A DNA stretch of 64,000 nucleotides from Escherichia phage APECc02: the sequence record NC_041869.1; one strand, given 5' to 3'. Below, piece after piece: positions 13,260-55,161 of the stretch (position 1 is the stretch's first letter; the number at the start of each line of letters is the position of its first letter). Below the pieces are notes generated by a model that was not told the DNA's origin, ran no database searches, and saw nothing but the letters and a program-made list of their open reading frames with translations. The translations under genes were made by a program, and so were the position numbers.

Positions 13260-13334
13260 GCCCTGTTAGCTTAGTGGATAAAGCAGCGGCCTTCTAAGCC
13301 GTTGACACTGGTTCGAGTCCAGTACGGGGTGCCA
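13260..13334 (+). tRNA. tRNA-Arg (anticodon TCT)
   Basis: Hand-folded cloverleaf: acceptor gccctgt/acggggt (two G-U pairs), D stem gctt/aagc, anticodon loop cttctaa, T arm actgg-ttcgagt-ccagt, encoded CCA. Confidence 0.75.
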
Positions 13335-13338
13335 AATT

Positions 13339-13425
13339 GGGGAGTTATCCCGTAGAGGTAGCGGTGTAGACTGTAAATCTATTGTCATTGCGACTCGGGT
13401 GGTTCGACTCCACCACTCCCCACCA
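13339..13425 (+). tRNA. tRNA-Tyr (anticodon GTA), long variable arm
   Basis: Acceptor ggggagt/actcccc, anticodon loop ctgtaaa, T arm ggtgg-ttcgact-ccacc, encoded CCA; 87 nt type II. Confidence 0.75.
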
Positions 13426-13539
13426 AATTTACATTTTTAAATGCATAAATCATACAGATAATGGCATTGATATTTATCGTCGTTTATACTAGTCACTAAC
13501 TGCTCGAAAATCAGTGTCATTATCAGTATTGTTTATAAA

Positions 13540-13630
13540 TGAGGGTAGGGAGCAATGGTGCTCAAGCGGTCTTGAAAACCGTCCCGTTGAGGATGACTCG
13601 ATGATGGTTCGATTCCATTACCCTCAGCCA
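13540..13630 (+). tRNA. tRNA-Ser (anticodon TGA), long variable arm
   Basis: Acceptor tgagggt/accctca, anticodon stem-loop gcggt-cttgaaa-accgt, T loop ttcgatt, encoded CCA; 91 nt. Confidence 0.7.
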
Positions 13631-13728
13631 TATTGTTGACCTTGTAATTAAGCGAAAGCCGGAAGCAGAACCGGATTATCAAATGTTACAGTCGTCATCG
13701 CCGACTAGCAACATGGTCAACATACTGA

Positions 13729-13825
13729 GCTAGGTAAGCCCTTTGGCAAGGGCGAGGATTTTTAATCCTGAAAATAGACGAGGTAGTCGTTGAATACATA
13801 GGTGGTTCGATTCCATCACCTAGCA
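13729..13825 (+). tRNA. tRNA-like gene, identity ambiguous (anticodon possibly TTT, Lys)
   Basis: Perfect acceptor gctaggt/acctagc, D stem gccc/gggc, T arm ggtgg-ttcgatt-ccatc, but about 30 nt between anticodon arm and T arm, no position-26 spacer, no encoded CCA. Confidence 0.4.
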
Positions 13826-13832
13826 CCTTTTT

Positions 13833-13908
13833 GCTGATGTAGCACAATTGGTAGTGCAATTGATTTGTAATCAATAGGTTGCAGGTTCGAGTCCTGCTAT
13901 CAGCACCA
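13833..13908 (+). tRNA. tRNA-Thr (anticodon TGT)
   Basis: Acceptor gctgatg/tatcagc, D stem gcac/gtgc, anticodon arm attga-tttgtaa-tcaat, T arm gcagg-ttcgagt-cctgc, CCA; 76 nt. Confidence 0.8.
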
Positions 13909-13909
13909 T

Positions 13910-13984
13910 GGCCCTGTAGCTGGAAGGTTCAAGCAAGCGACTCATAATCGCCAGACGGTGGTTCAATTCCACCCAGGGCCACCA
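13910..13984 (+). tRNA. tRNA with CAT anticodon (Met, or Ile2 read via lysidine)
   Basis: Acceptor ggccctg/cagggcc, anticodon loop ctcataa, T arm ggtgg-ttcaatt-ccacc, CCA. The anticodon arm gcgactcataatcgc resembles bacterial tRNA-Ile2 as I recall it. Confidence 0.7.
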
Positions 13985-13995
13985 AATAATAAATA

Positions 13996-14072
13996 CTCCG
14001 CGTAGCTCAGCTTGGTAGAGCGCCTGATTTGGGATCAGGAGGTCGAGTGTTCGAATCACTCCGTGGAGACCA
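13996..14072 (+). tRNA. tRNA-Pro (anticodon TGG)
   Basis: Acceptor ctccgcg/cgtggag with C1-G72, D arm gctc-agcttggta-gagc, anticodon arm cctga-tttggga-tcagg, T arm gagtg-ttcgaat-cactc, CCA. Confidence 0.8.
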
Positions 14073-25393: not shown

Positions 25394-26770
25394 ATGCCAT
25401 ATTTAGATAAAGTGGTAGATGTTACAGTTAACCTCGGAACCCAGCCTATTGACACTGTAGGTTTCGAAACTCCCCTGTTCATCGCTATCCACAACAACTT
25501 TACTGAGCGAGCTCGCGTATACGCTGAGCTGGATCAGATGGTGGAAGATGGTTTCGCACAAGGCTCTGCAGCGTATGAGTTTGCAGCAAAAGCTTTTGGT
25601 GGTGTATTCCCTCCACAATACGTTATGATCGGCAGACAGGCCAAAGAAAAGACCACTGTAGATTTTAAAGGTATTGCTGCCGCAGCTGATACCGATGTCG
25701 TAATGACTATTGCAAAAGGTAGCTACAATACTTCTTTGATAGTGCCTATCTCTGGTGGAACAGGTGCAACTCAGATTGCAGAGTCAATGAAGACTAAAAT
25801 TGAAGCAGATGATAGCTTGAACGATATCACTGTAGAGGCTGCTGAAGGTGTTCTCACCATCACGGGTGATTGTACTGTTGGTTATCATACTGGCAACTAT
25901 ACAATCAAAAATATCGCCAATGCTGAAAAACCTTCTACAGTAGTTGATAAGATCAATGCTGAGCGTGACAATTGGTACTTCCTGTGCCATGAAGACCACA
26001 CCGACATTGAAGCATGTGCTAAGTGGGCTCAGGCTAACTACAAGCTGCATGTCTACTCTACTGCAGAAGATGTGACTGGTAAAGATAATAACATCGCCAC
26101 CAAACTGATGGCTGCACAATATGACAGTGTTGGCATGTACGATCCTCGTGCTGATAAAGATTTTCCAGAGGGTGGTATCGTAGGCGCTATGGCATCCAAC
26201 GATCCGTCTTACGGTGACAGCTTGCACTTAAAACAGATGCCGGGTGTGATTGCACCATCTCTGACTTTAACTCAGCGTATGGCGATTTGGGAAAACCACG
26301 TTAACTTCTACAGGATGATTAACGGTGTCGGTGCTTTCTGGGAAGGCAAGTGTGCTTCAGGTCAGTATGCAGACGCTATTCGTTTTGCACACTGGATCAA
26401 GTTCAGATCTGAAGAATCCATGTTTGGGTACATGCATCGTCGCTCCAATATGGGTTTAAGCATGAAGATGTCTGATGATGATCTTCCGGTTATCAAGTCT
26501 GTCCTGATGAACAACCCAATCAACACTGGCATTAAGAATGGTGCGATCCTGACAGGTTTCGACGAAGACAATAATGTATTCTACGACCCGATCATCACAG
26601 TTCCTAAACGTGCAGAAATCCCAACCAATCAGTTGGCTGCTCGTGTTCTGGAAGGTGTGAAAGTAGAACTGGTGTATAACAACGCCCTGCACTTCGTTCG
26701 TATCCGGATCAATGTCCTTCTGGACAAAGTTGGTTCTAAATCCACCAATGCTGTTGCAATGACTGAATAA
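25394..26770 (+). CDS. putative tail sheath protein (alternative: large major tail protein)
   Basis: 458 aa, followed by a 157-aa tube-sized gene, a strong terminator, the chaperone pair and the tape measure gene. Order-based. Confidence 0.5.
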   Translation: MPYLDKVVDVTVNLGTQPIDTVGFETPLFIAIHNNFTERARVYAELDQMVEDGFAQGSAAYEFAAKAFGGVFPPQYVMIGRQAKEKTTVDFKGIAAAADTDVVMTIAKGSYNTSLIVPISGGTGATQIAESMKTKIEADDSLNDITVEAAEGVLTITGDCTVGYHTGNYTIKNIANAEKPSTVVDKINAERDNWYFLCHEDHTDIEACAKWAQANYKLHVYSTAEDVTGKDNNIATKLMAAQYDSVGMYDPRADKDFPEGGIVGAMASNDPSYGDSLHLKQMPGVIAPSLTLTQRMAIWENHVNFYRMINGVGAFWEGKCASGQYADAIRFAHWIKFRSEESMFGYMHRRSNMGLSMKMSDDDLPVIKSVLMNNPINTGIKNGAILTGFDEDNNVFYDPIITVPKRAEIPTNQLAARVLEGVKVELVYNNALHFVRIRINVLLDKVGSKSTNAVAMTE

Positions 26771-26780
26771 GGAAGCCTAG

Positions 26781-27254
26781 ATGGAAACTCAAATTTTAAC
26801 TCCTTATGCGTATGACCCTAAAAAGGTCAAACTGTATCTGATGCAGCAGCGTGTCACTGGCTTCGCTGCTGACACCAAGATTGTTGTTTCAAGAAACGAA
26901 GACAACATTTACCCTCACGTCGGTGTGGATGGTGAAATGTCTGCGGCTCTGTCTCGTAACCAATCTGGTGTTATGACCGTGTCTTTGCAGAACACTTCTG
27001 TATGGAACGCTTACCTTTCTGACTGGCAGAAACAGGCATCGATTACTGGTCTGGTATTCTTCCCAGTTCTGCTGGAAGGTAGCCAGGGTCCTGGTATTTC
27101 CACAATTGGTTGGATCCAGAAACAGCCTGACCTGACTTACGGAACCGAAGTAGGTCAACTGGACTGGGATATCGGTATTCTGGATGCATGGCTCAACCGT
27201 GATAACATCACTGGTGCTCTTACTGGCCTCGCAGGTCTTGCAGGTATTATCTAA
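26781..27254 (+). CDS. putative tail tube protein
   Basis: 157 aa immediately after the sheath-like gene, terminator downstream. Confidence 0.45.
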   Translation: METQILTPYAYDPKKVKLYLMQQRVTGFAADTKIVVSRNEDNIYPHVGVDGEMSAALSRNQSGVMTVSLQNTSVWNAYLSDWQKQASITGLVFFPVLLEGSQGPGISTIGWIQKQPDLTYGTEVGQLDWDIGILDAWLNRDNITGALTGLAGLAGII

Positions 27255-27272
27255 GGGCACACTTTAGCATAA

Positions 27273-27300
27273 GCCTCACCTTCGGGTGGGGCTTTTTGCT
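27273..27300 (+). terminator. rho-independent terminator
   Basis: gcctcacc-ttcg-ggtggggc hairpin plus TTTTT. Confidence 0.8.
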
Positions 27301-27344
27301 TTTATGGTTTTGACACACGTTCTTGAATTGCTTGGAAGGTTAAA

Positions 27345-27373
27345 TTGACAATGCACCATAATCATGGTAAAAT
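27345..27373 (+). promoter_or_regulatory. sigma70-like promoter (TTGACA-N17-TAAAAT)
   Basis: Perfect -35, 17-nt spacer, TGG immediately upstream of the -10. Confidence 0.6.
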
Positions 27374-27416
27374 ACACAAATATGGTGCACAACATGACTA
27401 ATAAGGATGCTATAAA

Positions 27417-27890
27417 ATGGCTATAAACTTTAGACCTACAACAGAGATTGATTTAGCAGGGCACAACTTTGTGATCACCCACTGGGGACCGATGAAAGCA
27501 ATGAAAAACATGCCTAAAATCGGTAAGATTGTGGCTGTCCCGCTAGGTGCTATCGGTGGATCTATTATCTCAGGCGGTCAGAACATGGCAGAGGTCCTTC
27601 CTACAGCTCTGGCTTACCTGTTCCAAGAACTTGATGATAACTCTATCGAAGAGTTATTTAAAATTTTGTTCGAAGATATTACCGTAGATGGTGTGGATAA
27701 GCTTAACCCGGATGTTGTGTTTGCAGGGCATCTGCTGGAGATGATTAAGCTGGCAGGTAAGGTTCTGGAGGTTAACTACGGCTGTTTTTTCACACAAGAC
27801 GGTTTAGGAAGCCTTCTGGAGATGTTACAGCAGATGGGTATGATTCAGCAGGTGAACAACCTGGATCAGACTCCGGAAGAGCAGGAATAA
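27417..27890 (+). CDS. tail assembly chaperone (G-like)
   Basis: 157 aa, acidic C-terminus, immediately upstream of the tape measure gene, with a slippery heptamer near its 3' end. Confidence 0.6.
   Translation: MAINFRPTTEIDLAGHNFVITHWGPMKAMKNMPKIGKIVAVPLGAIGGSIISGGQNMAEVLPTALAYLFQELDDNSIEELFKILFEDITVDGVDKLNPDVVFAGHLLEMIKLAGKVLEVNYGCFFTQDGLGSLLEMLQQMGMIQQVNNLDQTPEEQE
27785..27791 (+). promoter_or_regulatory. -1 programmed frameshift slippery heptamer T TTT TTC
   Basis: Canonical X XXY YYZ heptamer in the zero frame of the chaperone ORF; the -1 frame is open from 27776 to 28150. Confidence 0.6.
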
Positions 27891-28150
27891 GCAAGGTTGT
27901 TGTGAGGGCCAGTGAGTGGGCAGCCAAGAACAGTTCACTCAACTGGTTCGACTTTCTTTGGTGTAGGGTGCTCAAGAATTTCAAAGGGGAAAATTTTGAA
28001 TCGCTAAATCTTGCAGATATGGCGTATTTCCTGAAGCTCTGTGAGTATCTTGATATCGAAGAATTCCTAGATACCGTCCAAAACAGGGAAATGGAGCGGG
28101 AGCAGAAGGCTGCCGCAGCTGCTGCGAAAGCTAAGCGCAGGAGAGGATAA
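27788..28150 (+). CDS. frameshift extension of the tail assembly chaperone (GT-like fusion C-terminal part)
   Basis: -1 frame ORF overlapping the chaperone 3' end; Ala/Lys/Arg-rich basic C-terminus (AAAAAAKAKRRRG); the track lists only the 27902-28150 part. Confidence 0.5.
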   Translation, partial: FHTRRFRKPSGDVTADGYDSAGEQPGSDSGRAGISKVVVRASEWAAKNSSLNWFDFLWCRVLKNFKGENFESLNLADMAYFLKLCEYLDIEEFLDTVQNREMEREQKAAAAAAKAKRRRG

Positions 28151-28155
28151 TCTAA

Positions 28156-28190
28156 GGGCCGGATTCCTTTTCTGGGATCTGGCCCTTTTT
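28156..28190 (+). terminator. putative terminator
   Basis: gggcc...ggccc hairpin followed by TTTTT. Confidence 0.6.
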
Positions 28191-28204
28191 ATTATGAGGA
28201 AACC

Positions 28205-30541
28205 ATGGCTACAAACAAAATAGTTGCCACAACAGTCAACAAGATTGGCTTTGAGATAGAGAACTCCTCCTACAAAAAAGCTGTAGAGAAAATTCGCAGT
28301 ATTGGGAGGGAGTTCAGGAAACTGGGCGAGGATTTTAACTCAGCCAACCCCATGAGTAGATGGCAGGCGGTAGCTGTTAAAACCCAGCAGACAATGCAGC
28401 GGGTTGCCAGACAGCAATCTCAGGCAAATGCTAAACTGCACAGAGAGAGCGTAGCACAGGCCAAGAAAGAGGCTGCAGTAAGGGCTGCAATAGAACGTAG
28501 GGAGAATGCGAGACGTAAACAAGCTGTAGGTAATCTTACCGCTAAAAATCCAGAAATGGCTAGGATGCGTAAGTTCTACCAGCAGCAAGCTAAAGAGGCC
28601 AAAAAGGCTGCCAAATCTGCACCAGTGTCTTACGGTGGTTATAAGGCACCTAAGGCAAGAGTTTTGGCTAATGCCAAATCTTTCAAATATATCCCAGGTA
28701 ACCCTAATATGGGTGGTGTGGCTTCCGACCCTAACCTTGTGAAAGCTCAGACAGCCGCTATGAATCGTTATCATAGACAGCTAAGAAGAGACAGTAAAGC
28801 TGGTATGGATAATAGGCTTATGTCGGATCGTGAGGCAAGGAGAACCCACCTCTACAACTCCGCGATAAGACTTTCTGCCAAGTATGGGGCCGGATTCCGT
28901 GGAAGCTTGCCAGGATACTCAGAGTTAGAGTCCAGGTTTGCTCGCGGGGAGATGAAGAAGTCAACCTTTAACGCCCACCTGTCAGCGCTGCAGTCTGGGT
29001 TTAAAAGCGCCACCAGCCAAACGCTTACACTAGGCGATGCCATGAGAGACTTACGTAGATCTGTTATTAATGCAACAGCTGCGTATACAGCTTTTTCTGG
29101 ATTTGCTGCGGTTAACAGATCCGGTCACATGATGGAGGGGGCAAGTGCTGCTCTTACTGCTGTCACTGGAGATCCAAACAAAGCCAACAGTGAGGTTGCG
29201 TTTGTCCAGCAAGAGGCTATGCGTCTTGGTTTTGATCTCAAATCTGGTCTTCAAGGTTACGCCCAGATGTCGGTAAACGCCAAAAACCAGATGACAAATC
29301 AGGAAGTGCATGAGCTGTTTTCTGCATACTCCCAGTATGCTGCTGCTTATGGTGCCGATGAGGTAAAATACCAGCGCGGTATTATGGCTATCCAACAGAT
29401 GCTTGGCAAGGGACAAGTAATGTCCGAAGAACTGAAGCAACAACTTGCTGAAGCATTGCCTGGTGCATACGAACCTTTTATCAAGGCCACCAAAGAGGCT
29501 TTTGGTCTTTCTGAACTCTCCATGGATCAGTTCATGGACATGATGAAGAAAGGTGAGGTTAAAACAGCCAAGATCATGAAGTATGTGGCTAAGTACATGA
29601 ACGAGGCATCTGCAGCTGGTTATGAAAGAATGCAGAAGTCTAACGTGCTGGCAGAAAACAGACTGAAAACCTTCATCGAACTGACTCGTCAGAAACTGTT
29701 CACCCGTTGGTCTGACGAACTAACAGAGTTCTATTATACACTAATCCGCACTGGTGAGACTCTGCAATTTGTGTGGGATGCCTCTGGTGATTTTGTTAGC
29801 GGGTTTGTGAGAGGCCTTAACTGGGTAGTTGGTGAACTAAACAACACTATAGTCAAGATCCGCATGTTTTTCCTTGAATGGGGGATTAAATGGGGATTCA
29901 TAACAGCTAAGACGAAGGAATATTCTGAAGAGCTTCATGACACCTTTAGCTATGCTAAATGGGCAGGGTTTGCTGCTGCCATCATGCTGGTAGTCAACGC
30001 CCTAACAAAAGGTTTTGTCATGGCATCCATGCTTGTAAAAACCTTTAAATTCCTTAACTCTCTAAGGGGTGCAGCTGGAGCAGCGGGTGCCGCTACTACA
30101 GAAGGATCTGGTGGTGGAGCTCCGGCAGGAAAAGGTGGGGGTGGCCTCAAGACACCTGGTGGCAAAGTTGGTCTGCTCGGTAAGCTGGGCATTATCGGTA
30201 CAATACTAAGCGCCGGGGAATTATTTAATGACCGTTACAACCCACTAAGTGAAAGAAATCAGCAGCTAGATACTATCAGCGATATGATTCGCAAAGATAT
30301 CATATCGGGAGGTAACGGGTTTGTTAATCCTTTGGACACCTTACCTGGCGGGACTCTTCCGTTGCCGGGTGGCCCTGGTTTTGCTTCTCAATTAAGAACT
30401 ATGGAAATGCTACCTTTAGAGATCAGTGATGGGAAAATCACGATTTCAATAGATGAGGGTGAGTTTAACAAAATATTTGATGCAAAACTTGAGTGGGAGA
30501 ACAATAAAGATATCAACTTCATGTCTACCGACCTTTGGTAA
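28205..30541 (+). CDS. tape measure protein
   Basis: 778 aa, long Ala/Gln/Lys-rich helical regions, Gly-rich segment near the C-terminus, follows the chaperone pair. Confidence 0.7.
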   Translation: MATNKIVATTVNKIGFEIENSSYKKAVEKIRSIGREFRKLGEDFNSANPMSRWQAVAVKTQQTMQRVARQQSQANAKLHRESVAQAKKEAAVRAAIERRENARRKQAVGNLTAKNPEMARMRKFYQQQAKEAKKAAKSAPVSYGGYKAPKARVLANAKSFKYIPGNPNMGGVASDPNLVKAQTAAMNRYHRQLRRDSKAGMDNRLMSDREARRTHLYNSAIRLSAKYGAGFRGSLPGYSELESRFARGEMKKSTFNAHLSALQSGFKSATSQTLTLGDAMRDLRRSVINATAAYTAFSGFAAVNRSGHMMEGASAALTAVTGDPNKANSEVAFVQQEAMRLGFDLKSGLQGYAQMSVNAKNQMTNQEVHELFSAYSQYAAAYGADEVKYQRGIMAIQQMLGKGQVMSEELKQQLAEALPGAYEPFIKATKEAFGLSELSMDQFMDMMKKGEVKTAKIMKYVAKYMNEASAAGYERMQKSNVLAENRLKTFIELTRQKLFTRWSDELTEFYYTLIRTGETLQFVWDASGDFVSGFVRGLNWVVGELNNTIVKIRMFFLEWGIKWGFITAKTKEYSEELHDTFSYAKWAGFAAAIMLVVNALTKGFVMASMLVKTFKFLNSLRGAAGAAGAATTEGSGGGAPAGKGGGGLKTPGGKVGLLGKLGIIGTILSAGELFNDRYNPLSERNQQLDTISDMIRKDIISGGNGFVNPLDTLPGGTLPLPGGPGFASQLRTMEMLPLEISDGKITISIDEGEFNKIFDAKLEWENNKDINFMSTDLW

Positions 30542-42516: not shown

Positions 42517-43107
42517 ATGTTTTTATGGGAAAGGCCTAGATACCTTCCAGATATTAGATTAGAGTTGCTGGCAGATATTGTCACGTTTAAAAGTCCGTTT
42601 ACAGGTAAAACGCAAAAAGTAACCTATGCCACGCCTAACTGGAAAGGCACTTTGACGGTCTCCAATATCAGCGAGTCACAGTTACTAGAGCTTAAGAGCT
42701 TTGTTGATCAGGTGTATAAAGATGGGAACATCTTTCTTATTAAAACTTACGGTCACTCGGTAACAGCTAACGAGCCAATCGCCCTTGGGCCTACTGGTAA
42801 CGACGATTTTTTGAAGACTGTTGGGTGGGAGCCAAACAGAGACATAGCCAGAGCCGGGGATAAAATATCTGTCAATGATGAATTGAAAGTGGTAACAGCT
42901 CCAGTGCGTAGCGATGGTGTTGGGTCTGCTGTTATAGGCATATCTCCAAGACTTAGAAAACCTATTGCCGCAGGGGACACCATGAAGATAATAACTCAAT
43001 CTCCGAAGGGTAGGTTTCATATCAGAGATATTTATAAAATTAAGCAAAAAGTCGATGCTATGCAAAAAGGTGATAATATAGTTATCAACTTCTTTGAGGA
43101 TTTCTAA
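42517..43107 (+). CDS. hypothetical distal tail protein
   Basis: 196-aa ORF, first of four tightly overlapping genes before the 1199-aa protein. Confidence 0.4.
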   Translation: MFLWERPRYLPDIRLELLADIVTFKSPFTGKTQKVTYATPNWKGTLTVSNISESQLLELKSFVDQVYKDGNIFLIKTYGHSVTANEPIALGPTGNDDFLKTVGWEPNRDIARAGDKISVNDELKVVTAPVRSDGVGSAVIGISPRLRKPIAAGDTMKIITQSPKGRFHIRDIYKIKQKVDAMQKGDNIVINFFEDF

Positions 43108-54117: not shown

Positions 54118-55161
54118 ATGACTAAACCAGTTATCCCTCTTGATATTTGGGCCAATCAGGATGTTGTGCTTGAAAATACGGGAGAGTTGAATAAGTCTCA
54201 ACCAAAAAAAGAAGAGAGATTGAAAGGTTGGGATATGGCACAAAGAGTGGCATGTGAAGTTGTTAACTTTGAACTTCACATGCTTTCTGCGTGGTTAAAG
54301 CATCTAACAGAAGATGTTGTCCCAGGATGGGATAATAGATTCTTAAGGGTCACTAATAATCTAGCAGACGTTCCAGACAAAGCTGCTGCACGTCAAGTTC
54401 TCAATGTATACTCGCCTGAAGAAATGGACGATTTGTATGTTGACAAGTCTGGAGACATAATGACTCAGACTCAAACTTTAGGTCTTCAAAGAATCGAGTT
54501 TGCATCTGCGTCAACAGACAATGCGGCAATATATACCACCATAACTCCAGACAAGACGACGATGGATTTCTGGATTATGGACAACATCGGTGGTGCTGAC
54601 GGCACAGACCTTGATGATCCTTCTCACCAAATAGACGGGTTCCGTTGGAGATTTCAACCTTCTGGTGGGCAGCCTGTGTTTTCGGCTATGAAGCTCAATG
54701 CTATAACTGCCAACCGTGCAAGACTGGCCATCCAAGGAAATCTTGAATGCAACGATGCAAAAAGTTCCTCTGCAAATGCCAATGCGGTCACGATACCAAG
54801 AGCCACTGTTAACGGACAACAATCCTGCGGAAGCGCTCAAATAGGTGGAAGAGTTGATTGTAACGATGAAACAGTCAGGGGTCAATATGCAACAGTTGGT
54901 GGAAGAAACGTGGTCCGCAGGGTAAATGGTAACGGCGCAGACAGTAGTGGTAACCTTACTATCCCTATGCCCAGCAGAGGGGTTGATGATGTAAGGATAG
55001 CAAACCGTTTCAAAACCACCTACAGAGAGTCAAGAGTCTACCCTGGACATGTGATGTGCTCTGGTAACTACGCTTATAAACACCCTTATCAAGGTGATTA
55101 CTGGACAGGTGCTATCCAAAAACTTGTAAATGGTCAATGGATCACTATATCTTATGCTTAA
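54118..55161 (+). CDS. tail fibre protein (paralogue 2)
   Basis: 347 aa; N-terminus and C-terminus (YWTGAIQKLVNGQWITISYA) parallel 52063-53103, central region diverged. Confidence 0.7.
   Translation: MTKPVIPLDIWANQDVVLENTGELNKSQPKKEERLKGWDMAQRVACEVVNFELHMLSAWLKHLTEDVVPGWDNRFLRVTNNLADVPDKAAARQVLNVYSPEEMDDLYVDKSGDIMTQTQTLGLQRIEFASASTDNAAIYTTITPDKTTMDFWIMDNIGGADGTDLDDPSHQIDGFRWRFQPSGGQPVFSAMKLNAITANRARLAIQGNLECNDAKSSSANANAVTIPRATVNGQQSCGSAQIGGRVDCNDETVRGQYATVGGRNVVRRVNGNGADSSGNLTIPMPSRGVDDVRIANRFKTTYRESRVYPGHVMCSGNYAYKHPYQGDYWTGAIQKLVNGQWITISYA

What the first reader, a model, noticed from the sequence alone, without database searches (positions are those of the whole stretch)
27417..28150. Canonical -1 programmed frameshift in the tail assembly chaperone
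A perfect X XXY YYZ heptamer (T TTT TTC, 27785-27791) lies in frame in the chaperone ORF, and the -1 frame is open from 27776 to 28150, giving a longer fusion product. This is the conserved G/GT arrangement upstream of a tape measure gene and supports the gene calls around it.
Basis: partly seen in the sequence, partly recalled or inferred. Interest (0 to 1): 0.4.

Follow-up and report, generated by a model that had tools for sequence, protein, structure and literature searches.

The report
Tail chaperone frameshift in rV5-like phage
This is the ordinary two-proteins-from-one-gene trick that long-tailed phages use to build their tails, here in an rV5-like E. coli phage, where it is very well conserved but was not annotated in the public records inspected.

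Summary
T_TTT_TTC (27785-27791) lies in frame in the tail assembly chaperone ORF (27417-27890), and the -1 frame is open from 27776 to 28150.

The window is an rV5-like coliphage (Vequintavirus). Gene order is sheath, tube, chaperone, -1 ORF, tape measure.

- The in-frame heptamer and a -1 frame reaching 206-296 nt past the chaperone stop occur in 48/48 related loci fetched without reference to the site (27 distinct sequence contexts; further genera of Vequintavirinae, plus Stephanstirmvirinae and Plateaulakevirus).
- The residue before Phe-Phe varies (Cys, Pro, Ser), yet its third base is always T.
- Rheinheimera Barba phages have lost the T-run. They carry lambda's G_GGA_AAG three codons downstream, feeding a homologous -1 domain.
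- No independent start codon for the downstream ORF is conserved.

No conserved downstream RNA structure exists. In this phage a strong Shine-Dalgarno-like GGAGG sits 11 nt upstream.

The predicted 244-aa fusion adds a disordered linker and a small helical domain.

This is a new member of a well-known kind: lambda G/GT and P2 E/E+E'. The same T-run site was proposed in 2025 for sister phage families. Interest is low to moderate, and its main value is correcting annotation.

The parts
25394..26770 (+). tail sheath gene (context)
   Evidence: phrog_205 tail sheath E=7e-118; Pfam DUF3383
26781..27254 (+). tail tube gene (context; rV5 gp52 equivalent)
   Evidence: Pfam KPP10_Orf10 / phrog_280. Public records call it tail tube. 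rV5 gp52 is identified as tube in PMC3606486.
27271..27294 (+). terminator-like hairpin plus T-tract after the tube gene
   Evidence: annotated as terminator in phage Murica
27345..27373 (+). sigma-70-like promoter TTGACA-17-TAAAAT with TG extension, upstream of the chaperone gene
   Evidence: 11 of 12 consensus matches. Consensus match only, function not shown.
27417..27890 (+). tail assembly chaperone ORF, short product (157 aa; gpG / TAC-N analogue; rV5 gp51 equivalent)
   Evidence: Pfam PF21822 Phage_TAC_15 E=2.3e-23; phrog_3840 E=5.4e-69. AAGGA lies 9 nt before the ATG.
27766..27773 (+). Shine-Dalgarno-like UGGAGGUU, 11 nt upstream of the heptamer; candidate dnaX-type stimulator (inferred)
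   Evidence: Anti-SD duplex -10.0 kcal/mol. Only 3.7% of in-frame positions in the window reach -8 or lower. Present in several genera, absent in Mydovirus, Certrevirus and Aeromonas phage. Also encodes conserved Leu-Glu-Val.
27773..27775 (+). TAA in the -1 frame, which bounds the possible shift window on the 5' side
27785..27791 (+). slippery heptamer T_TTT_TTC in X_XXY_YYZ phase (Cys-Phe-Phe)
   Evidence: Invariant in 48 unbiased related loci and 27 contexts; all three third-codon positions are fixed while neighbouring ones vary.
27791..28150 (+). -1 frame extension (119 codons plus stop). With 27417-27791 it gives the 244-aa long product (gpGT / TAC-NC analogue).
   Evidence: phrog_10409 E=3.6e-50
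27791..27892 (+). Gly/Ser/Asp/Pro-rich linker of the extension, starting with the conserved R-F-R-x-P-S-G motif
   Evidence: pLDDT below 50 for residues 1-30. Length varies among relatives but the frame is always preserved.
27893..28144 (+). helical C-terminal ('T') domain with a basic tail
   Evidence: AlphaFold2 model: helices 35-47, 52-63, 69-74, 77-118, pLDDT 74-93. Conserved KNSSLxWF ... EYLDI motifs.
27902..27904 (+). GTG used as the start of a separate 82-aa 'hypothetical protein' in the public records that annotate this ORF separately; probably not a real start
   Evidence: Weak SD (-4.2 against about -6 for most neighbouring genes). No equivalent start in relatives.
28154..28187 (+). 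terminator-like hairpin (14 pairs) plus T-tract, immediately after the -1 frame stop and before the tape measure start
   Evidence: annotated as terminator in Murica
28205..30541 (+). tape measure protein gene (context; rV5 gp49 equivalent)
   Evidence: Pfam TMP_3 E=1.5e-18; phrog_5255 E=0

Best explanation
This is a programmed -1 ribosomal frameshift in the tail assembly chaperone gene of an rV5-like myophage.

Most ribosomes translate 27417-27890 and release the 157-aa chaperone. A minority shift while tRNA-Phe occupies UUU (P site) and UUC (A site) of U_UUU_UUC at 27785-27791. Both tRNAs slip back one base to UUU_UUU. Translation then continues from C27791 in the -1 frame to the TAA at 28148-28150. 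The result is a 244-aa protein with three parts: the chaperone's first 125 residues, a flexible linker of about 33 residues, and a helical domain of about 85 residues.

By analogy with lambda gpG/gpGT and P2 E/E+E', the shared N-terminal part would coat the tape measure protein (28205-30541). The rare C-terminal domain would recruit the tube protein so that it polymerises around the tape measure. Neither product would stay in the virion.

Shown here: the site, its phase, the open frame, their deep conservation, and the lack of a conserved independent start.

Inferred: the slip itself, its efficiency, the binding partners, and a stimulatory role for the upstream GGAGG (27767-27771).
For: (1) Site and frames are verified.

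(2) Gene identities and order are sheath, tube, chaperone, -1 ORF, tape measure.

(3) In 15 GenBank phages of 8 genera, with fusion identity down to about 29%, T_TTT_TTC is in frame at the homologous codons. The -1 frame opens 9-36 nt upstream and runs 260-278 nt past the chaperone stop. The fusions are 244-252 aa and align end to end.

(4) 28 IMG/VR loci were fetched using N-terminal motifs only; 28/28 show the same arrangement. Four metagenome loci from other clades also do, as does Aeromonas phage 4L372D.

(5) Across 27 unbiased sequence contexts, the third bases of the three heptamer codons are invariant (T, T, C). Flanking synonymous sites vary (TAC 17 / TAT 10 among the 30 contexts tabulated, etc.). 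The preceding codon is TGT, CCT, AGT or TCT, so the amino acid changes while the T is kept.

(6) Rheinheimera phage Barba30A has CTA ACT in place of TTT TTC. It has in-frame G_GGA_AAG three codons downstream, and its -1 product is homologous from 'FR.PSGD' onward (E=7e-16).

(7) No conserved independent start exists. KNP2 has no ATG/GTG/TTG before the conserved domain. In Certrevirus and pEp_SNUABM_01 the first start lies after the conserved KNSSLxWF motif. Database ORF calls begin at 12 different places and range from 43 to 102 aa.

(8) U_UU.U_UU.C belongs to the H_HH.U_UU.Y class, listed among the most efficient -1 motifs in E. coli (PMC4066793).

(9) P2 shifts at TTTTTTG without downstream structure (PMC3091744). 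The lambda mechanism and its 30:1 ratio are described in PMC5009743.
Against: There is no direct evidence for the 244-aa protein, from proteomics, ribosome profiling or reporter assays.

No conserved downstream stem-loop or pseudoknot was found. RNAalifold gave 0 pairs on 13 sequences. The 59 nt after the site fold no better than shuffles (z=+1.09). Rfam gave nothing. Efficiency may therefore be low, as in lambda.

In this phage a GTG at 27902 with a weak SD could in principle start the downstream ORF independently.

The Phe-Phe dipeptide is itself conserved, so part of the nucleotide conservation reflects protein constraint.

A one-base insertion by RNA polymerase on the T6 run would give the identical protein. 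Sequence analysis alone cannot exclude this.
Confidence: 0.9

Rival explanations
1. The downstream ORF is a separate gene. Ribosomes would initiate at GTG 27902 and make a free 82-aa protein, as several GenBank records annotate it, with no frameshift.
For: GTG 27902 lies 12 nt after the chaperone stop and is preceded by AAGG (anti-SD duplex -4.2 kcal/mol). Murica and other records annotate it this way, with an RBS. phrog_10409 is an 82-aa family.
Against: The start is not conserved. KNP2 has no start codon at all before the conserved domain. In Certrevirus, A5-4-like phages and pEp_SNUABM_01 the first start truncates the conserved KNSSLxWF motif. Called ORFs in databases start at 12 different positions.

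The -1 frame stays open back to the heptamer in all 48 loci, despite indels in the linker. The -1 peptide R-F-R-x-P-S-G just after the site, upstream of any start, is conserved as far as Barba phages. The SD is weaker than those of most neighbouring genes (about -6).
Confidence: 0.05
2. Transcriptional slippage. RNA polymerase would insert an extra U on the T6 run in a fraction of transcripts, putting the two ORFs in one frame. The protein product is identical to the frameshift product.
For: The site is a homopolymer run. The product ...CFFHT... would be the same either way (direct reading of the sequence). Vladimirov et al. 2022, as cited in PMC12846349, argue for a non-translational route in T4-like phages.
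Against: The run is exactly 6 in all 48 unbiased loci and never longer. From my own knowledge, efficient slippage by bacterial RNA polymerase generally needs runs of about 8-9 or more.

Barba phages replace the run with G_GGA_AAG, which has no homopolymer able to support polymerase slippage but is a classic ribosomal shift site. The phase of the run and the C at position 7 are invariant. That matters for tRNA re-pairing but not for polymerase slippage.
Confidence: 0.04
3. Coincidence. The heptamer and the open -1 frame would be chance features with no expression consequence.
For: In-frame XXXYYYZ heptamers are not rare: 33 in 14,884 codons, or 0.35 expected per ORF of this size.
Against: It is the only one of the 33 with a long -1 frame, 119 codons against at most 19 for the others. 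The -1 frame matches a conserved protein family. The arrangement is invariant across subfamilies.
Confidence: 0.01

Closest known systems
Bacteriophage lambda gpG / gpGT -1 frameshift (Levin, Hendrix & Casjens 1993; Xu, Hendrix & Duda 2004, 2013, 2014; summarised in PMC5009743)
   Same: Two overlapping ORFs lie between the major tail/tube gene and the tape measure gene. [quoted passage not shown] A -1 shift adds a C-terminal domain. No downstream RNA structure is required. The Barba relative of this locus uses lambda's exact heptamer G_GGA_AAG.
   Different: This phage is a contractile-tailed myophage of about 137 kb, not a siphophage. The heptamer is U_UUU_UUC. The chaperone belongs to Pfam Phage_TAC_15, and the T domain has no detectable similarity to any solved structure. 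A strong SD-like element lies 11 nt upstream. Ratio and binding partners are untested here.
Phage P2 E / E+E' frameshift (Christie et al. 2002; as described in PMC3091744)
   Same: Myophage. The -1 shift occurs on a T6-type heptamer (TTTTTTG in P2, TTTTTTC here). No downstream hairpin. Located between tube and tape measure genes.
   Different: The proteins are unrelated in sequence: Pfam matched only Phage_TAC_15, and similarity to P2 E was not tested directly. The products are longer (157/244 aa against 91/142 aa in P2). The last base of the heptamer is C, not G.
TAC-N / TAC-NC -1 frameshift proposed for Vandenendeviridae (Pakpunavirus Adele) and Andersonviridae, with an invariant GTTTTT motif (PMC12846349, Dec 2025)
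   Same: These are sister clades with the same tail module (DUF3383 sheath, KPP10-type tube). They share a T-run near the 3' end of TAC-N, a downstream ORF routinely mis-annotated as a hypothetical protein, and an argument based on an uninterrupted -1 frame. I confirmed AGT_TTT_TTC in 23 Felixounavirus-like contigs.
   Different: In the passages I read, that paper does not report the site for Vequintavirinae or Stephanstirmvirinae. Added here: the full canonical heptamer phase, the synonymous-site argument, the Barba heptamer swap and the start-codon test.
E. coli dnaX -1 frameshift (A_AAA_AAG with upstream SD-like element and downstream hairpin; Larsen et al. 1994, from my own knowledge)
   Same: An internal Shine-Dalgarno-like sequence sits about 10-14 nt 5' of a canonical heptamer (GGAGG, 11-13 nt upstream here).
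   Different: No downstream hairpin. The SD-like element is not conserved in all relatives and overlaps conserved Leu-Glu-Val codons. The gene and its purpose are different.

Membership tests
Phage tail assembly chaperone G/GT-type programmed -1 frameshift (Xu, Hendrix & Duda 2004) | Two overlapping ORFs located between the major tail (tube) gene and the tape measure gene | tested here: met
   Tube 26781-27254, chaperone 27417-27890, -1 ORF to 28150, tape measure 28205-30541
Phage tail assembly chaperone G/GT-type programmed -1 frameshift (Xu, Hendrix & Duda 2004) | The upstream ORF is a tail assembly chaperone | tested here: met
   Pfam PF21822 Phage_TAC_15 E=2.3e-23 (83.6 bits against a cut-off of 22); phrog_3840 and phrog_1613 'tail assembly chaperone'
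Phage tail assembly chaperone G/GT-type programmed -1 frameshift (Xu, Hendrix & Duda 2004) | Canonical slippery heptamer X_XXY_YYZ, in phase, inside the overlap of the two frames | tested here: met
   T_TTT_TTC at 27785-27791; overlap 27776-27890; it is the only such heptamer in the ORF
Phage tail assembly chaperone G/GT-type programmed -1 frameshift (Xu, Hendrix & Duda 2004) | The arrangement (shift site plus extended frame) is conserved in relatives whose protein sequences have diverged, including with a different heptamer | tested here: met
   48/48 unbiased loci have T_TTT_TTC. The Barba phage has G_GGA_AAG. 23 Felix-like contigs also carry T_TTT_TTC, though these were selected by a pattern containing it.
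Phage tail assembly chaperone G/GT-type programmed -1 frameshift (Xu, Hendrix & Duda 2004) | The downstream frame has no translation start of its own | tested here: inconclusive
   Met across the family: no conserved start, and none at all in KNP2. In this window, though, a GTG at 27902 with a weak SD (-4.2 kcal/mol) cannot be excluded as an extra start.
Phage tail assembly chaperone G/GT-type programmed -1 frameshift (Xu, Hendrix & Duda 2004) | Both the short and the long product are made from one start at a fixed low ratio, and both are needed for tail assembly | not testable with these tools
   Needs proteomics or western blots and genetics. The 5.8-billion-protein collection returned only 149-159-aa short forms and no fused entry.
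Phage tail assembly chaperone G/GT-type programmed -1 frameshift (Xu, Hendrix & Duda 2004) | The products are absent from mature virions | tested here: inconclusive
   The main text of the rV5 virion proteomics lists gp49, gp52, gp53, gp60 and others, but not gp50 or gp51 (PMC3606486). The full supplementary table was not read.
dnaX-type stimulated -1 frameshift | SD-like element about 10-14 nt 5' of the heptamer | tested here: met
   UGGAGGUU at 27766-27773, dG -10.0 kcal/mol, 11-nt spacer. Not conserved in Mydovirus, Certrevirus or Aeromonas phage. Function is inferred only.
dnaX-type stimulated -1 frameshift | Stable stem-loop or pseudoknot 5-9 nt 3' of the heptamer | tested here: not met
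   RNAalifold found 0 pairs. Local fold -7.8 kcal/mol, z=+1.09. No consistent hairpin across relatives. No Rfam hit.
Programmed transcriptional slippage | Long homopolymer run (about 8-9 or more A/T, from my own knowledge), with run length rather than codon phase under selection | tested here: not met
   The run is exactly T6 in all unbiased loci, in fixed phase, followed by an invariant C. The Barba relative has no run.

The most novel reading that the evidence does not exclude
The long chaperone form may not be made purely by ribosomal slippage. One possibility is that RNA polymerase stuttering on the T6 run contributes; a non-translational route has been argued for T4-like phages. Another is that expression in rV5-type phages is tuned by a dnaX-like internal Shine-Dalgarno element (GGAGG, 11 nt upstream) that some sister genera lack. 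In that case the short-to-long ratio would be set lineage by lineage rather than being a fixed property of the module. A free T domain started at GTG 27902 could be a third product specific to Vequintavirus.
Probability: 0.12. Interest if true: 0.4.

Novelty: new member of a known kind. Interest (0 to 1): 0.22.

Why it matters
The main value is annotation and method. None of the 15 annotated GenBank records opened here joins the two ORFs. In the listings of 187 DNA-matched and 489 protein-matched records, the downstream part appears as a 'hypothetical protein' with arbitrary starts or is left unannotated. A 5.8-billion-protein collection holds no fused product.

Recognising the frameshift gives a correct gene model for a group used in phage therapy and biocontrol (rV5, phi92, PVP-SE1, CR3 and Felix O1 relatives). 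It removes a spurious ORFan family (phrog_10409 and others). It also supplies a clean natural experiment: a heptamer kept over very deep divergence, then swapped for lambda's heptamer in Barba phages. That experiment supports ribosomal rather than polymerase slippage.

It does not change understanding of tail assembly.

Tried and rejected
- **Downstream stimulatory RNA structure.** Per-sequence hairpin scans 3-10 nt after the site gave no consistent element. RNAalifold on 13 diverse sequences gave zero pairs. The longer 121-nt fold (z=-2.16) rests on long-range pairs that relatives do not share. The local 59-nt fold is no better than shuffles.
- **Rfam.** At E<=1 over 27250-28250: nothing.
- **Sequence and fold libraries.** PDB sequence search with the fusion: nothing at E<=1. 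NCBIfam: nothing meaningful. Foldseek of the T-domain model against PDB: nothing below E=2.7. Against BFVD: only the same family, plus a weak hit to the Moogle 'tape measure chaperone' (E=0.76).
- **Natural in-frame G-T fusions.** The exhaustive search of 1.84 billion representatives with the T part found none. The long hits (737-1311 aa) are LRR/DUF285 repeat proteins and were rejected as spurious. The one fused record, Felixounavirus CL1 with T7, is contradicted by 23 contigs with T6 and none with T7, so it is probably a homopolymer error.
- **Literature on this frameshift in rV5, phi92 or Vequintavirinae.** Nothing specific was found.
- **A -2 shift on U6.** The +1 frame hits TAG five codons after the site (read), so this would only truncate the protein.

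Full report
**Observation**

The sequence shows a T6 run at 27785-27790 followed by C27791. The ORF that starts at ATG 27417 and ends at TAA 27888-27890 translates to 157 aa. Its codons around the run are TGT (27783-85), TTT (27786-88) and TTC (27789-91). T_TTT_TTC is therefore exactly in X_XXY_YYZ phase.

The -1 frame has a TAA at 27773-27775. It is then open for 124 sense codons, to a TAA at 28148-28150. A slip at the heptamer gives a 244-aa protein: 125 codons in frame 0 plus 119 in frame -1. Every coordinate in the finding is correct.

**Chance**

In 45 plus-strand ORFs of the window (14,884 codons) there are 33 in-frame XXXYYYZ heptamers. About 0.35 are expected in an ORF of this size, and 0.08 in the 38-codon overlap. 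The heptamer alone is therefore weak evidence. It is, however, the only one of the 33 followed by a -1 frame longer than 19 codons (it has 119). It is also the only one whose -1 frame passes the ORF's stop.

**What the locus is**

The window is 99.5% identical over this kilobase to rV5-like coliphages of the genus Vequintavirus. The gene order, from Pfam and PHROGs, is:
- tail sheath, 25394-26770 (phrog_205, E=7e-118);
- tube, 26781-27254 (KPP10_Orf10);
- tail assembly chaperone, 27417-27890 (Pfam Phage_TAC_15 E=2.3e-23; phrog_3840 E=5e-69);
- the -1 ORF;
- tape measure protein, 28205-30541 (TMP_3; phrog_5255).

The -1 extension matches phrog_10409, an 82-aa family of 'unknown function', at E=3.6e-50. 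So it encodes a conserved polypeptide.

None of the 15 annotated public records I opened joins the two ORFs. The downstream part is either called as a separate hypothetical protein or omitted.

**Comparative test**

A tblastn search with the hypothetical fusion found two-piece matches, in two frames, in 353 phage records down to about 29% identity. I fetched 14 loci from 8 genera:
- Vequintavirinae: Vequinta-, Avuna-, Seuna-, Henuna-, Mydo- and Certrevirus;
- Stephanstirmvirinae: Justusliebig- and Phapecoctavirus.

In all of them T_TTT_TTC is in frame at the homologous codons. The -1 frame opens 9-36 nt upstream of the heptamer and runs 260-278 nt beyond the chaperone stop. The deduced fusions are 244-252 aa and align end to end.

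To avoid selecting on the site, I fetched IMG/VR loci using only N-terminal chaperone motifs. All 28 have the same arrangement. So do four metagenome loci from clades at 74%, 45% and 41% identity, and Aeromonas phage 4L372D of Plateaulakevirus.

These 48 loci give 27 distinct 45-nt contexts. Some are the same phage drawn from two collections. In every context the three third-codon positions inside the heptamer are invariant (T, T, C), while flanking synonymous positions vary. For example, Tyr is TAC 17 times and TAT 10 times among the 30 contexts tabulated, which include 3 Felix-like ones. The codon before Phe-Phe is TGT (Cys), CCT (Pro), AGT or TCT (Ser), so the amino acid changes while the final T is kept. 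The first base of the -1 codon after the site, which is position 7 of the heptamer, is always C. The residue it encodes varies (His, Arg, Gln, Leu). This is nucleotide-level constraint that neither reading frame's protein explains.

**Heptamer swap**

Rheinheimera phage Barba30A is a more distant relative (32% identity over the chaperone region). It has CTA ACT where the others have TTT TTC, so the T-run is gone. Three codons downstream it has an in-frame G_GGA_AAG, which is lambda's slippery heptamer. This lies inside an open -1 frame. The Barba -1 product aligns with the rV5 -1 product from the motif F-R-x-P-S-G-D, immediately after the site, through the C-terminal domain (E=7e-16).

This supports ribosomal slippage over slippage by RNA polymerase on a homopolymer. 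It also argues against conservation being driven only by the Phe-Phe dipeptide.

Felixounavirus-like contigs carry AGT_TTT_TTC with a 278-nt -1 frame in 23 of 23 cases. These were selected by a pattern that contains the site, so they are not an independent test.

**Rival 1: independent start**

In this window GTG 27902, the annotated start, is preceded by AAGG. The anti-SD duplex is -4.2 kcal/mol, against about -6 for the sheath, tube, chaperone and tape measure starts.

Across relatives there is no conserved start:
- KNP2 has no ATG, GTG or TTG before the conserved domain.
- In Certrevirus phages and in pEp_SNUABM_01 the first candidate lies 15 or more residues after the conserved KNSSLxWF motif.
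- In a library of 1.84 billion representative proteins, relatives of the T part are ORFs of 43-102 aa starting at 12 different positions of the query. One begins 'MFF' exactly at the slip site.

The linker between site and domain varies in length, but the domain is always in the -1 frame with no intervening stop. Independent initiation as the general mechanism is therefore rejected. An extra start in Vequintavirus cannot be excluded.

**Rival 2: transcriptional slippage**

A one-U insertion would give the same protein, so sequence alone cannot fully exclude this. Three observations argue against it: the run is never longer than six, its phase and the following C are invariant, and Barba phages use a non-homopolymeric heptamer.

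**Stimulators**

No conserved downstream structure exists:
- RNAalifold finds no pairs.
- The 59 nt after the site fold at -7.8 kcal/mol with z=+1.09.
- Hairpin scans are inconsistent among relatives.
- Rfam gives no hit.

This matches P2 and lambda, where no structure is needed (PMC3091744).

Upstream, UGGAGGUU at 27766-27773 pairs with the anti-SD at -10.0 kcal/mol and lies 11 nt before the heptamer. Only 3.7% of in-frame positions in the window reach -8 or lower. From my own knowledge of dnaX (Larsen et al. 1994), this spacing is right for stimulating -1 shifts. However, the element also encodes the conserved Leu-Glu-Val, and it is missing in Mydovirus, Certrevirus and the Aeromonas phage. 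I list it as a candidate only.

U_UU.U_UU.C belongs to the H_HH.U_UU.Y class, named among the most efficient motifs in E. coli (PMC4066793).

**The extension**

An AlphaFold2 model of the 119-aa -1 part, built from an 11-sequence alignment, has mean pLDDT 73.6. Residues 1-30 are disordered. Residues 35-118 form four helices at pLDDT 74-93. There is no significant match among solved structures.

By analogy with lambda, gpG and the G part of gpGT bind the tape measure, and the T domain binds the tail tube subunit. The ratio there is about 30:1 and neither protein stays in the virion (PMC5009743). I infer the same division of labour here, with the tube protein as the likely T-domain partner.

The main text of the rV5 virion proteomics lists the tube, sheath and tape measure proteins. 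It does not list gp50 or gp51, which is consistent but not conclusive.

**Novelty**

The kind is textbook: lambda G/GT, and P2 E/E+E' at TTTTTTG. A December 2025 paper proposes the same -1 frameshift, with an invariant GTTTTT motif, for the sister groups Vandenendeviridae and Andersonviridae. It notes the same mis-annotation (PMC12846349).

I found no statement of it for rV5, phi92 or Vequintavirinae. The rV5 genome paper does not mention a frameshift. A search with the fusion protein of the 5.8-billion-protein collection returned only short forms of 149-159 aa.

I rate it a new member of a known kind. Its practical value is for annotation, and specialists would find it of low interest.

Noticed in passing
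window 27271-27294, 27345-27373, 28154-28187: The chaperone unit looks like its own small transcription unit. A terminator-like hairpin follows the tube gene. A near-consensus promoter follows (TTGACA-17-TAAAAT, 11/12, with TG). A 14-pair terminator-like hairpin sits directly after the -1 frame stop and before the tape measure RBS. Tape measure expression would then depend on terminator read-through or on another promoter (Murica annotates both terminators).
   Followed up: partly
window 13260-14072, especially 13729-13827: There is a cluster of seven tRNA-like genes. One is unusually long (97-99 nt). ARAGORN reports it with a four-base anticodon 'atcc' and no amino-acid assignment. It still passes the Rfam tRNA threshold (35.5 bits). 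The rV5 paper counts six tRNAs.
   Followed up: partly
L047 (Escherichia phage CL1, OK040806) 1330-1336: This Felixounavirus record has T7 instead of T6 at the homologous site. The two chaperone frames are therefore fused into one 213-aa 'tape measure chaperone' ORF. 23 IMG/VR Felix-like contigs have T6 and none has T7, so this is probably a homopolymer sequencing or assembly error rather than a natural fusion.
   Followed up: yes
L046 (Rheinheimera phage Barba30A) 1324-1330: Barba phages (115 records) have replaced the T-run by an in-frame G_GGA_AAG three codons downstream. This is identical to lambda's G/GT heptamer. Their downstream ORF is also annotated as a separate hypothetical protein.
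   Followed up: yes
GenBank MG0656xx records (table): About 18-23 records named 'Campylobacter phage' (host C. jejuni) are 99% identical to rV5-like E. coli phages over this region. Most have no annotation. This may be mislabelling or contamination of the source material.
   Followed up: no
L048 / L049 (human-gut metagenome relatives) 1-1144: In this clade, 74% identical in the chaperone, a 512-621-aa gene with DUF723 domains lies directly upstream of the chaperone gene, where the tube gene is found in other relatives. It may be an inserted mobile or homing-endonuclease-like gene.
   Followed up: no
window 27926-28054 (T-part residues 46-88): The helical T domain gives weak sequence hits (E 1e-6 to 1e-3) to repeated units of bacterial LRR/DUF285 proteins. 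This is probably a leucine-pattern artefact. Solved structures gave no support: Foldseek against the PDB found nothing below E=2.7.
   Followed up: partly
window 42807-42813, 54204-54210: Two other homopolymer heptamers lie in frame in long ORFs: TTTTTTG in 42517-43107 and AAAAAAA in 54118-55161. Their -1 frames close after 16 and 15 codons, so there is no sign of programmed shifting.
   Followed up: yes
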